From Alphaproteobacteria bacterium (GTDB taxonomy: Bacteria > Pseudomonadota > Alphaproteobacteria > Rickettsiales > UBA1997), in NCBI GenBank assembly GCA_014190355.1, contig BJGH01000003.1, forward strand, positions 2,893 through 66,892: a DNA stretch of 64,000 bases, given 5' to 3'. Below the pieces are notes generated by a model. That model made no database searches and was not told the origin of the DNA. It was given only the letters and a program-made list of their open reading frames with translations. Of the stretch, positions 28,736 through 30,812 are shown piece after piece (the first letter of the stretch is position 1; the number at the start of each line of letters is the position of its first letter). The translations under genes and the position numbers were made by a program.

Positions 28736-28757
28736 TAATTGATTAAATTTTTTAAAT

Positions 28758-30812
28758 ATGACTATTAAAGCTGAATATAAAATTATTGCTGATCACTTGC
28801 GTTCCTCAGCATTTTTAATTGCTGATGGCGTTATGCCCAGCAATGAAGGGCGAGGTTATGTCTTAAGAAGAATTATGCGTAGAGCAATGCGTCAAATCCA
28901 TAAACTTCAAGCAAAATCACCTCTTATGCATTTAATTGTTGATAGCCTTATCAAAGAAATGGGTCAGCAATACCCTGAACTAGTTCGAGCACAAAATTTA
29001 ATCACGGCAATTTTAAAAGATGAAGAAGAAAAATTTCGTGAAACTCTTGAAAAGGGTCTAAAAATTCTTGATGAAGAAATTGCTTTAATTCTTGCTAACC
29101 AAGATTCAAAAACTCCCTACCAGCAAAAATTATCTGGACAAATCGCTTTCAAATTATATGACACTTTTGGTTTTCCCATTGATTTAACACAAGATATTTG
29201 CAAAGAAAAAAATATTACTTTAGATCACGATGAATTTCTGAAGGAAATGGAACTTCAACGCGAAAGAGCTCGAAAAAATTGGTCTGGAAGCGGAGAAAAT
29301 AACGAAGATAAAGTTTTTTTTACCATTAAAGAAAAATTTGGTGAGACAATCACAACTTATCATCAAAACACTCAATCCTTCGCAAAAATTTTAGCAATTG
29401 TTAAAGATAATGAATTTATCTCAGAGATTAGTGATTATTCACAAACTTTAACAAATTCAAATGTTTTTATAATTCTTAATCAAACACCTTTTTATGCGAC
29501 TTCTGGTGGACAAAAAGGCGATGATGGCAATATCATCAAAGCCAATGAATTAAAGGCTAATTTAAGTCATGATATTGATTATAATCAACTCACTAATTTT
29601 ATTGATATTTTTGAAACTAAAAAATTTGCAGGCAATATTTTTGCTCATTATCTTGCTCAAGTTAAAGGGAATTTTAAAGTTGGCGATGAAATCCTAGCAA
29701 TGGTTAATAATCGCAATCGTCAACTTCGTGCTCAAAATCACTCAGCAACTCACCTACTCCACAAAGCTTTAAAACAAGTTTTGGGTAACACTATTTCTCA
29801 AAAAGGTTCCAATGTTGATGCCAAATATTTAACATTTGATTTTAATCTAAACCGAGCTATGACCAGAGAAGAGCTTGACCAAGTAGAAGAATTAGTTAAT
29901 TTTTATATTCGTCAAAATTCTAATGTTAACACCAACGAGATGCCTCTTGAGCAAGCAAGAAATAGTGGAGCGGAAACGTTATTTGGTGAAAAATATGAAG
30001 ATGTGGTTCGAGTTGTTCAGATGGGAATTTCTGTTGAATTGTGCGGCGGAACTCATGTTAAAAATACTGGCAATATTGGTATTTTCAAAATCATTAGTGA
30101 AAATGGCATTGCTTCAGGAGTTAGAAGAATTACTGCTAAAAGTGGTTTTTTTGCCCTGCAACATCTTAAAATTCAAGAGCAAAAACTCTATGCACTTCTT
30201 GATTCACTCAAAGTAAAACAGCAATTCGATGAAATAAAAATTTCTGAAAATGAATTTTTATCAAATAAAATTGGCTTTGATGATTTAGCTTTTTTTAGCA
30301 ATGAAAAAAATGGCGATATTATTAGCAATGAAATTAGAAATTCAATACTCGAAATAGCCAGTAAAACCGCATCAATTGGCGATGATTTTATCGCTCAAAT
30401 AAAAAATAAAGATAAAGAAATTGCTAAGTTAAAAAAACAAATCTGGCAAGAAAATCTTAAAAATTTACAAAGCGAAAAAATTAATAATATTAATCTCCTT
30501 AATCACATTTTCAGTGATGTTGATGCCAAAGATCTCCGTGAAATAACTACTGAAATCAAATCTTCAAAACAATTTAGTAATCAACATATCATTGCATTTT
30601 TTGCAACTAAAGATGATAAGGTTTCACTATGCTTAACAGTTTCTAGTGATTTACAAGATAAATTCGAGGCCAATAAACTGATTATTCCAATGATTGAAAA
30701 ACTTGATGGCAAAGGCGGTGGAGGCAAAAAAGATTTTGCAATGGGAGGAGGATTAAACGCCAAAGCAATTAACGAAACTATATTTCTACTAAAAAAATTA
30801 CTAACTAATTAG
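28758..30812 (+). CDS. alaS: Alanyl-tRNA synthetase fragment with tRNA-recognition, editing and C-Ala domains only; the aminoacylation domain is absent
   Basis: Starts [45 protein letters not shown], which corresponds to about residue 265 onward of E. coli AlaRS. Has editing motifs HSATHLLH and CGGTH and the C-terminal [13 protein letters not shown]. It begins only 22 nt after the RNase J stop. Confidence 0.85.
   Translation: [684 protein letters not shown]

What the first reader, a model, noticed from the sequence alone, without database searches (positions are those of the whole stretch)
28736..30812. alaS ORF lacks the entire class II aminoacylation domain, suggesting a split or truncated alanyl-tRNA synthetase
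Seen: the 684-aa ORF begins [45 protein letters not shown]. As I recall E. coli AlaRS, this aligns with ...[41 protein letters not shown] at about residue 265. The tRNA-recognition helical domain, the editing domain ([8 protein letters not shown], CGGTH) and the C-Ala/DHHA1-like end ([13 protein letters not shown]) are intact and free of stops. Nothing resembling class II motifs 1-3 lies upstream. The RNase J stop codon is only 22 nt before this ATG. Established: the catalytic core of bacterial AlaRS is the N-terminal ~250 aa, and the one split AlaRS I know of is in the archaeon Nanoarchaeum equitans. Inference: the catalytic half may be encoded elsewhere and assemble in trans. Alternatively this is an unusually large AlaX-like trans-editing paralog beside a full-length alaS.
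Basis: partly seen in the sequence, partly recalled or inferred. Interest (0 to 1): 0.65.

Follow-up and report, generated by a model that had tools for sequence, protein, structure and literature searches.

The report
Bacterial alanyl-tRNA synthetase split in two genes
This gene is the larger part (tRNA recognition, proofreading and C-terminal domains) of an alanyl-tRNA synthetase whose 263-residue catalytic part is a separate gene elsewhere in the same genome, and the same clean split recurs across a large group of uncultured aquatic alphaproteobacteria, whereas papers on this enzyme name only the tiny archaeon Nanoarchaeum and its relatives as having it split.

Summary
ORF 28758-30812 (684 aa) begins at position 268 of the AlaRS models and lacks the class II catalytic domain. 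Independent assemblies span the rnj/alaS junction, so it is not an assembly artefact.

The 120 closest homologues, and more distant ones down to 45% identity, start at the same point. A matching family of stand-alone 260-264 aa catalytic halves exists as complete genes inside contigs.

The partner in this organism is P0504 (263 aa, GDX36248.1, annotated "hypothetical protein"). It lies on another contig of the same lake metagenome. Its contig depth tracks the window's in eight metagenomes.

The two proteins cover the AlaRS models as 1-246 and 268-847, with no overlap. Both are under strong purifying selection (dN/dS about 0.1). The break is near E. coli residue 272, in a loop between two helices. 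This differs from the Nanoarchaeum site (about residue 368): here the catalytic core is separate from all G3:U70-reading residues, an arrangement like bacterial GlyRS alpha/beta.

Assembly of the halves and activity are inferred, not shown. I could not exclude a full-length alaS elsewhere in the genome. I found no earlier report of this split.

The parts
26993..28735 (+). rnj (RNase J, 580 aa). It lies directly upstream of alaS-beta and is probably co-transcribed with it.
   Evidence: Pfam finds RNase_J_b_CASP, Lactamase_B, RMMBL and RNase_J_C. No terminator-like site lies between it and alaS-beta, and promoter-like hits are at chance level. rnj is also next to alaS-beta in relatives L002, L003 and L004.
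28736..28757 (+). 22-nt spacer between the rnj stop codon and the alaS-beta start codon. It contains an in-frame TGA (28740-28742) that closes the alaS frame upstream.
   Evidence: Read directly from the sequence. Independent contigs span it unchanged.
28758..30812 (+). [quoted passage not shown]
   Evidence: Supported. TIGR00344 matches profile positions 268-847 of 847. Residues 7-173 align with residues 280-437 of the E. coli fragment 3HXU. dN/dS against L002 is about 0.11.
28767..29711 (+). Second half of the PF01411 region. It holds the helical tRNA-recognition domain (residues 5-174 in the model) and the beta-barrel. The G3:U70 readers are Asn29 (PSNEG, codon 28842-28844) and Asp135 (LYDTFGFP, codon 29160-29162).
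   Evidence: Pfam matches residues 3-318 to profile positions 268-550. The motifs were located. The roles of N303 and D400 in E. coli come from PMC10036535. The AlphaFold model has helices from residue 5, with pLDDT 80-90.
29739..30131 (+). Editing-site core, from HSATHLLH (residue 328) to CGGTH (residue 429) and the tRNA_SAD domain (residues 417-458).
   Evidence: Supported. These residues are invariant or nearly so in 42 beta homologues.
30498..30803 (+). C-Ala (DHHA1-like) domain with [13 protein letters not shown]. A long coiled-coil helix (residues 524-567) precedes it.
   Evidence: Pfam DHHA1 matches residues 581-682. The model is described.

Best explanation
ORF 28758-30812 is the beta subunit of a two-gene alanyl-tRNA synthetase.

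[quoted passage not shown] The two pieces then moved apart in the genome.

- **Alpha** is about 263 aa (P0504 in this organism, on another contig, directly downstream of rnpB). It carries class II motifs 1-3 and should make alanyl-adenylate.
- **Beta** is this ORF. It carries the Asn/Asp pair that reads G3:U70, the editing site and C-Ala.

The most likely mechanism is that alpha and beta associate without a covalent link into an enzyme with the normal AlaRS geometry. Alpha's C-terminal amphipathic helix would pack against beta's N-terminal helical domain, and beta's C-Ala would dimerise the complex. Charging and proofreading of tRNA-Ala would then proceed as in ordinary AlaRS.

**Shown:** both genes exist, both are intact and conserved, they tile the ancestral protein, and they belong to the same genome bin. 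The split is shared by a large clade.

**Inferred:** physical association, stoichiometry and activity.
For: 1. **The truncation is a clade feature.** The best 120 homologues (100-52% identity) are almost all 660-750 aa; the few shorter ones cover only part of the query. All 12 that I read start a few residues before KIIADH. Representatives of more distant clusters down to 45% identity (P0143, P0144, P0146, P0149, P0150, P0157) start at the same place. The nearest full-length AlaRS are only 44-48% identical.

2. **A complementary family exists.** The best 120 hits to a profile of stand-alone N-halves are all 253-307 aa, mostly 260-264, with PF01411 only. They are complete genes inside contigs, flanked by unrelated genes.

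3. **The partner in this organism is P0504.**
   - It is 263 aa and lies on Logan contig DRR125123_4852 (12,122 bp). The window's own contig is DRR125123_2361.
   - Contig depths, alpha against beta: X1 37.9 / 35.5; X2 9.71 / about 10.3; X3 10.2 / 9.84; X4 9.25 / 8.37; X8 14-18 / 11-13; X10 6.57 / 7.9; X12 about 5 / about 6; X19 12.9 / about 12.9.
   - On one representative value per run, chosen by me, r = 0.99, or 0.90 without X1.

4. **The halves tile the ancestral protein.**
   - Alpha matches PF01411 positions 1-256 and TIGR00344 positions 1-246. Beta matches 268-550 and 268-847.
   - Alpha residues 3-258 align with E. coli 3HXU 3-267. Beta residues 7-173 align with 280-437.
   - Alpha's tail (13 aa) plus beta's head (8 aa) make 21 aa, the modal linker length in full-length proteins.

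5. **Both halves are under purifying selection.** dN/dS is about 0.11 for beta and about 0.08 for alpha. Catalytic, G3:U70-reading and editing motifs are all kept.

6. **Each half is modelled as a folded unit.** Alpha has pTM 0.82, its best structural match is the E. coli AlaRS catalytic fragment (TM 0.83), and it ends in helix 248-260. Beta begins with helix 5-22.

7. **There is precedent.** The N. equitans alpha and beta subunits are active together (PMC11392972).
Against: - No experiment or complex model shows that alpha and beta bind each other.
- I could not search the whole genome of this organism, so a third, full-length alaS is not excluded.
- The link between the two contigs rests on depth covariation, shared runs and compatible composition. 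It does not rest on one closed chromosome. Tetranucleotide correlation is 0.98, which does not discriminate.
- I found no pair of halves on a single contig in any relative.
- E. coli N-terminal fragments shorter than 442 residues do not charge tRNA on their own (PMC11392972). Function therefore depends wholly on the unproven association.
- The RNA-labelled runs were too thin to show transcription.
Confidence: 0.85

Rival explanations
1. The two halves do not form one enzyme. Alpha alone acts as a minimal alanine-activating or charging enzyme. Beta acts separately as a free-standing tRNA-Ala binding and trans-editing factor, like an oversized AlaX.
For: N. equitans alpha alone has weak alanylation activity that does not depend on G3:U70 (PMC11392972). 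Free-standing AlaX editing proteins exist, and beta contains an AlaXM-like core (91.5 bits). The two genes sit in different transcription contexts: alpha after rnpB and beta after rnj.
Against: Alpha here ends near E. coli residue 272. This is much shorter than N. equitans alpha (about E. coli 368) and shorter than the minimal active E. coli fragment of 442 residues. It has no tRNA-recognition residues at all. Beta keeps the Asn/Asp G3:U70 readers nearly invariant, and these only matter if placed beside an active site. The clean tiling without loss fits a preserved interface.
Confidence: 0.08
2. The ORF is an AlaX-like paralogue or a relic. A normal full-length alaS elsewhere in the genome does the essential job.
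For: The whole genome could not be searched, and MAGs are incomplete.
Against: Both halves form families of more than 100 clusters (at 90% identity) with fixed boundaries and dN/dS about 0.1. None of the top 120 beta relatives is full length. Beta passes the alaS equivalog cutoff but not AlaX. Ordinary truncated alaS fragments in other genomes look different, ending in frameshifted tails. A redundant pair of half-genes would not be kept this way across such a deep clade.
Confidence: 0.04
3. The break is an assembly or sequencing artefact, such as a chimeric join at 28.75 kb or a frameshift.
For: None beyond the unusual gene start right after rnj.
Against: Contigs assembled independently from at least four runs of different studies cross the junction with 0-2 differences. 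The same rnj-alaS-beta arrangement is seen in L002 at 83% identity. The same start point is seen in hundreds of homologues.
Confidence: 0.01

Closest known systems
Split AlaRS of Nanoarchaeum equitans and other Nanoarchaeota (AlaRS-alpha / AlaRS-beta)
   Same: One AlaRS is encoded by two unlinked genes, and the N-terminal piece carries the class II active site. In N. equitans both pieces together are needed for strong, G3:U70-specific charging (PMC11392972; PMC10036535).
   Different: That enzyme is the archaeal type, in a hyperthermophilic episymbiont. It is cut at about E. coli residue 368, inside the tRNA-recognition domain, so its alpha keeps the Asn that reads U70. Here the enzyme is the bacterial type and is cut near residue 272. 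Both G3:U70 readers (Asn29, Asp135) are on beta, and alpha is the bare catalytic domain plus one helix. The origin is independent.
Bacterial heterotetrameric GlyRS (glyQ alpha about 290 aa, glyS beta about 690 aa)
   Same: A class II catalytic core of about 260-300 aa sits on a small alpha chain. The acceptor-stem-reading domain, homologous to the AlaRS tRNA-recognition (ATL) domain, sits on a large beta chain (bioRxiv 10.1101/2023.05.29.542759). After AlaRS itself, GlyRS alpha chains are the next structural matches of the alpha model. Fused (alpha-beta)2 and split forms both occur in GlyRS (PMC10164559 abstract).
   Different: The amino acid and tRNA differ. GlyRS beta has HD and body-tail domains between the catalytic and ATL parts, and it has no editing or C-Ala domain. 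This is a resemblance in architecture, not family membership.
Ordinary bacterial AlaRS (TIGR00344, about 875 aa, one chain)
   Same: Every domain and key motif is present, in the same order, when alpha and beta are read together. The nearest full-length proteins are 44-48% identical to beta, and their N-domains are 57-70% identical to alpha-family proteins.
   Different: There are two polypeptides from two separate loci.
AlaX free-standing editing proteins (AlaX-S, -M, -L)
   Same: They contain the HxxxH / CxxxH editing core and act on mischarged tRNA-Ala.
   Different: AlaX proteins lack the tRNA-recognition domain with the Asn/Asp pair. Beta scores 91.5 bits against a cutoff of 300 for AlaXM.
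Tupanvirus mini-AlaRS and C-Ala-less mitochondrial AlaRS
   Same: They are natural departures from the AlaRS 'prototype' architecture (PMC10036535; PMC8887476 abstract).
   Different: Those enzymes have lost domains. Here nothing is lost; the chain is only broken.

Membership tests
Bacterial AlaRS (alaS, TIGR00344 / PF01411+PF07973+PF02272) | Class II catalytic domain with motifs 1-3 and the alanine and ATP pocket | tested here: met
   The feature is absent from the window ORF but present on the partner protein P0504. PF01411 matches positions 1-256 with E = 2e-115. P0504 is 61-62% identical to solved AlaRS catalytic fragments. RAGGKHNDL, HHTFFEMLGN, GPCGPCSEI, EIWNLVFMQ and DTGMGLER are conserved.
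Bacterial AlaRS (alaS, TIGR00344 / PF01411+PF07973+PF02272) | tRNA-recognition domain with the Asn and Asp that read G3:U70 (E. coli N303, D400) | tested here: met
   Asn29 (PSNEG) and Asp135 (LYDTFGFP) lie in the window ORF. D135 is invariant and N29 is at least 90% conserved in 42 homologues. The ORF aligns with E. coli 280-437.
Bacterial AlaRS (alaS, TIGR00344 / PF01411+PF07973+PF02272) | Editing domain (HxxxH, CxxxH) and C-Ala | tested here: met
   HSATH is at residue 328 and CGGTH at 429. tRNA_SAD and DHHA1 hits were found.
Bacterial AlaRS (alaS, TIGR00344 / PF01411+PF07973+PF02272) | All domains on a single polypeptide | tested here: not met
   The domains sit in two genes on different contigs. 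Beta alone passes the equivalog cutoff (499.6 against 457). Alpha alone fails it (380).
Bacterial AlaRS (alaS, TIGR00344 / PF01411+PF07973+PF02272) | Charges tRNA-Ala with alanine | not testable with these tools
   This needs an aminoacylation assay with alpha, beta and alpha plus beta.
Naturally split AlaRS (Nanoarchaeota type) | Two unlinked genes that together cover AlaRS | tested here: met
   Supported.
Naturally split AlaRS (Nanoarchaeota type) | Break at about E. coli residue 368, inside the tRNA-recognition domain; archaeal-type sequence | tested here: not met
   The break here is near E. coli residue 272. The bacterial model TIGR00344 fits far better than the archaeal TIGR03683. The N. 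equitans site is taken from PMC11392972.
Naturally split AlaRS (Nanoarchaeota type) | The two subunits associate and are active only, or mainly, together | not testable with these tools
   No multimer prediction or assay was available.
AlaX trans-editing proteins | Free-standing editing domain without a tRNA-recognition (Asn/Asp) domain; passes an AlaX family model | tested here: not met
   AlaXM scores 91.5 bits against a cutoff of 300. A full tRNA-recognition domain is present.
Split-intein / trans-spliced protein | Intein halves (about 100 aa and about 35 aa) at the broken ends | tested here: not met
   Alpha's tail beyond the conserved helix start is 13 aa and beta's head is 8 aa. Together they equal the normal linker length. 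Pfam finds no other domain.

The most novel reading that the evidence does not exclude
A deep, widespread clade of uncultured aquatic alphaproteobacteria has lived for a long time on an AlaRS whose catalytic core is a separate protein from every tRNA-reading element. MAGs of this clade are labelled Rickettsiales or Alphaproteobacteria, and it is found in freshwater and at least one marine scaffold. The split is an independent, bacterial origin of split AlaRS at a new site, and it reproduces the alpha/beta layout of bacterial GlyRS. It would be a natural system for testing how acceptor-stem recognition is coupled to catalysis across a non-covalent interface. Annotation pipelines currently hide it: beta is named 'alanine--tRNA ligase', and alpha is named 'hypothetical protein' or left unnamed.
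Probability: 0.75. Interest if true: 0.72.

Novelty: new variant of a known kind. Interest (0 to 1): 0.68.

Why it matters
A 2023 paper on the enzyme describes AlaRS as the one synthetase that keeps a single "prototype" architecture throughout biology, with Nanoarchaeum as the exception it names (PMC10036535).

- **A second, independent split.** A large bacterial clade has a clean break exactly between the catalytic domain and the tRNA-recognition domain. This shows the two modules can be separated in nature.
- **A test system.** It allows direct tests of how G3:U70 recognition on one chain drives transfer at an active site on another chain.
- **A link to GlyRS.** The alpha/beta layout gives a living parallel to the proposed common origin of AlaRS and bacterial alpha/beta GlyRS.
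- **Consequences for annotation.**
  - Genome-completeness and metabolic reconstructions will count the catalytically dead beta as a full alaS.
  - They will drop the real catalytic gene as a hypothetical protein or leave it without a name.

Tried and rejected
1. **Catalytic half inside the window.** A tblastn search found none. Class I lysS and other neighbours of alpha genes in relatives are also absent from the window.

2. **GTDB genome scan for alpha genes.**
   - All 80 loci were ordinary alphaproteobacterial alaS: 72 read on for at least 800 aa, and the other 8 run off a contig end or stop early.
   - The scan served only as a contrast. It shows that Rickettsia, Pelagibacteraceae and others are not split.

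3. **Guessing this organism's alpha protein from source tags and contig counts.** P0336, P0358, P0392, P0474 and P0489 were all other species.

4. **Matching NCBI accession series between alpha and beta proteins.** No match was found.

6. **Metagenome scan with my own pattern.** It did give 11 alpha loci, including L126. L126 served as the bait that led to P0504.

7. **Same-contig proof in a relative.** No contig carrying alpha matched a contig carrying beta by name or length.

8. **Transcription.** The only RNA-labelled runs are tagged METAGENOMIC and give thin scattered contigs, so nothing can be concluded. The metatranscriptome hit for L126 (X42) may only reflect the stretch upstream of the alpha gene there, which by synteny with relatives is probably rnpB.

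9. **Other short AlaRS N-terminal proteins on long contigs (284-478 aa).** I considered them as further split types and rejected this. Most of the ten that I read end in out-of-frame tails typical of frameshifts.

10. **Literature.** Five full-text searches found no report of a naturally split bacterial AlaRS. The library does not hold most subscription journals.
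Full report
**1. The observation**

The ORF at 28758-30812 (+) encodes 684 aa beginning [17 protein letters not shown].
- The RNase J gene ends with TAA at 28733-28735. 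Twenty-two bases follow before the ATG. An in-frame TGA at 28740-28742 closes the alaS frame upstream.
- Pfam matches only profile positions 268-550 of 552 of tRNA-synt_2c, then tRNA_SAD and DHHA1. NCBIfam TIGR00344 matches positions 268-847 of 847.
- The editing motifs HSATH and CGGTH and the C-terminal [13 protein letters not shown] are present.

**2. The break is not an artefact**

Contigs assembled independently from public lake, reservoir and sediment metagenomes cover 28000-31100, including the rnj/alaS junction, with 0-2 differences. A relative with an 83% identical protein has the same rnj-alaS arrangement (L002).

**3. The truncation is a clade character**

- The 120 best homologues (100% down to 52% identity) are almost all 660-750 aa; the few shorter ones cover only part of the query.
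- All 12 that I read start a few residues before the KIIADH helix.
- An exhaustive HMMER search of 1.8 billion cluster representatives found further short forms at 45-55% identity (P0143, P0144, P0146, P0149, P0150, P0157). These are complete to the C-terminal glycine-rich C-Ala motif (GGKGGGGK in most) and start at the same point.
- The nearest full-length AlaRS are only 44-48% identical. In them, query residue 5 aligns with residue about 268-271.
- Ordinary alphaproteobacteria have full-length genes, including Rickettsia, MAGs labelled Rickettsiales and Rickettsiaceae, and Pelagibacteraceae.

**4. The missing half exists as its own family**

I built a profile from the N-domains of six AT-rich full-length relatives. 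It pulled out many proteins of exactly 260-264 aa. A profile of 36 of those returned 120 best hits that are all 253-307 aa with PF01411 only.

These are complete genes inside contigs of up to hundreds of kb, followed by stop codons and unrelated genes. They are 78-89% identical to one another, and all catalytic motifs are invariant. They end 9-15 residues after the conserved ...DNYExDxF helix start.

Other short AlaRS N-terminal proteins on long contigs are different. Most of those I read end in out-of-frame-looking tails and are frameshifted full-length genes.

**5. The partner in this organism**

- **Bait.** A scan of metagenome contigs with a DNA pattern for NAGMxQFKN[YF]F gave 11 alpha loci, among them L126 (29.6% G+C).
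- **Same sequence in several runs.** I laid the contigs of four runs that hold the window on L126 at 80% likeness. In each run one contig showed the same set of differences.
- **Identification.** The loose end of that contig predicted a tail ...NLISNINKNFLL. That led to cluster member P0504: 263 aa, GDX36248.1, [quoted passage not shown].
- **Location.** P0504 is encoded on Logan contig DRR125123_4852 (12,122 bp), in the same run as the window's contig DRR125123_2361. It also occurs in SRR29004172 and other runs of the series that holds window genes.
- **Depth.**

| Run | Alpha contig depth | Beta contig depth |
|---|---|---|
| X1 | 37.9 | 35.5 |
| X2 | 9.71 | about 10.3 |
| X3 | 10.2 | 9.84 |
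| X4 | 9.25 | 8.37 |
| X8 | 14-18 | 11-13 |
| X10 | 6.57 | 7.9 |
| X12 | about 5 | about 6 |
| X19 | 12.9 | about 12.9 |

 On one representative value per run, chosen by me, r = 0.99, or 0.90 without X1. Composition is compatible but does not discriminate.

This is binning-grade evidence that both genes belong to one genome. It is not proof on a closed chromosome.

**6. The two halves tile the ancestral protein**

- Alpha covers PF01411 positions 1-256 and TIGR00344 positions 1-246. Beta covers 268-550 and 268-847.
- On the E. coli catalytic fragment 3HXU, alpha residues 3-258 align with 3-267 and beta residues 7-173 align with 280-437. The break is therefore near residue 272.
- Alpha's tail (13 aa) plus beta's head (8 aa) equals 21 aa, the modal linker length in full-length proteins. 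Family-wide the modes are 11 and 8. Nothing was lost or duplicated, and there is no room for intein halves.
- Both genes are under strong purifying selection. For beta against L002, dN = 0.105 and dS = 0.95. For alpha against L126, dN = 0.115 and dS = 1.40.

**7. Structure**

The alpha family is modelled with pTM 0.82. Its best PDB matches are the E. coli, A. aeolicus and human AlaRS catalytic fragments (TM about 0.8). The model ends in a helix at residues 248-260.

Beta begins with a helix at residue 5. It is modelled as a helical domain (5-174), a beta-barrel plus editing domain, a long coiled coil (524-567) and C-Ala. Confidence is good within domains, with flexible linkers between them. 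The cut therefore lies in a loop between two helices.

**8. How it most likely works (inference)**

- Alpha makes alanyl-adenylate.
- Beta binds the acceptor stem through Asn29 and Asp135, which correspond to E. coli N303 and D400 (roles from PMC10036535). Beta also edits mischarged tRNA and binds the tRNA elbow, and it probably dimerises through C-Ala.
- The halves should dock through alpha's terminal helix and beta's first helices to restore the normal geometry.
- Alpha alone is unlikely to charge tRNA. Even E. coli fragment 1-368 cannot, and 442 residues are the minimum (PMC11392972).
- The genes are not co-located. Beta follows rnj with no terminator between them. Alpha follows the RNase P RNA gene.

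**9. Comparison with known systems**

- **Nanoarchaeota.** The only natural split AlaRS named in the papers I read is that of N. equitans and other Nanoarchaeota. [quoted passage not shown] The present split is bacterial, lies about 100 residues earlier, and puts both G3:U70 readers on beta. It is an independent event.
- **Bacterial GlyRS.** The layout resembles bacterial alpha2beta2 GlyRS most closely. There, the catalytic alpha chain and an AlaRS-like acceptor-stem domain on the beta chain are homologous to the AlaRS catalytic and tRNA-recognition domains (bioRxiv 10.1101/2023.05.29.542759). GlyRS alpha chains are the next structural neighbours of the alpha model after AlaRS.
- **AlaX.** The ORF is not an AlaX protein.

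**10. Novelty and limits**

Five full-text searches found no report of a split bacterial AlaRS. The library lacks most subscription journals, so prior description cannot be excluded.

NCBI's own family model explains why the split goes unnoticed. Beta passes the alaS cutoff and is named alanine--tRNA ligase. Alpha fails it and is called hypothetical or is left without a name.

Three things remain unshown:
- physical association and activity of the two halves;
- absence of a full-length alaS in a closed genome;
- the exact taxonomic bounds of the clade.

Noticed in passing
L226:1681-2163 (also L227:518-1000, L228:9-491); L006:7065-7533; L011:1259-1729; L102:9649-10080; L116, L164, L206: The stand-alone catalytic gene (alaS-alpha) lies about 45-165 nt downstream of the RNase P RNA gene rnpB, on the same strand. 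This holds in the window's organism and in at least six other lineages. In L099 and L128 a tRNA-Ile(GAU) gene occupies that place instead. With beta sitting right behind rnj, both halves are next to RNA-processing genes. Co-transcription with a stable RNA is possible but untested.
   Followed up: partly
window 28758-30812 and P0504 (L225:90-881): There is an annotation trap. Beta scores 499.6 bits on TIGR00344 (cutoff 457), so it is named alanine--tRNA ligase although it has no active site. Alpha scores 380 and is deposited as 'hypothetical protein' (GDX36248.1, NBX53138.1, MFM2199987.1) or carries no NCBI protein name at all.
   Followed up: yes
L102:10001-10882 (P0489): The 293-aa gene call for this alpha protein overlaps rnpB. 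The real start is probably Met31, which gives 263 aa.
   Followed up: partly
P0407, P0411, P0300, P0335, P0372 and others: Many AlaRS N-terminal proteins of 284-478 aa sit on long contigs in other bacteria. Most of the ten that I read end in out-of-frame-looking tails, so they are frameshifts or assembly errors, not further natural splits.
   Followed up: partly
L148 (TARA_B110000259 scaffold, 25 kb): An alpha-type stand-alone catalytic gene also occurs on a marine Tara Oceans scaffold. The split clade is therefore not confined to fresh water.
   Followed up: no
window 21447-24272 (-) and the ORF just upstream of it: A VirB4-like protein (941-aa ORF; 922 aa as called) lies next to a VirB3 gene, so type IV secretion components are present. 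Near alpha (L225) lie a 926-aa ankyrin-repeat protein and a protein of more than 2,400 aa with DUF637. These are features usual in host-associated Rickettsiales-like bacteria.
   Followed up: no
window 31409-35939: nuoH, nuoI, nuoJ and nuoK are followed by a 638-aa protein whose only recorded Pfam hit is DUF4116. A recognisable nuoL would be expected there.
   Followed up: no
L099:1254-4558 compared with window 37714-41343: The RNase E - CutA - GDPD gene cluster of the window recurs on a relative's contig. That contig carries its alpha gene about 5.4 kb further on. In the window that stretch holds other genes, so gene order around both halves is fluid within the clade.
   Followed up: partly
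window 29976: The window and run X1 have A at this position. Seven other metagenomes from other studies have G. This is a population variant inside alaS-beta.
   Followed up: no
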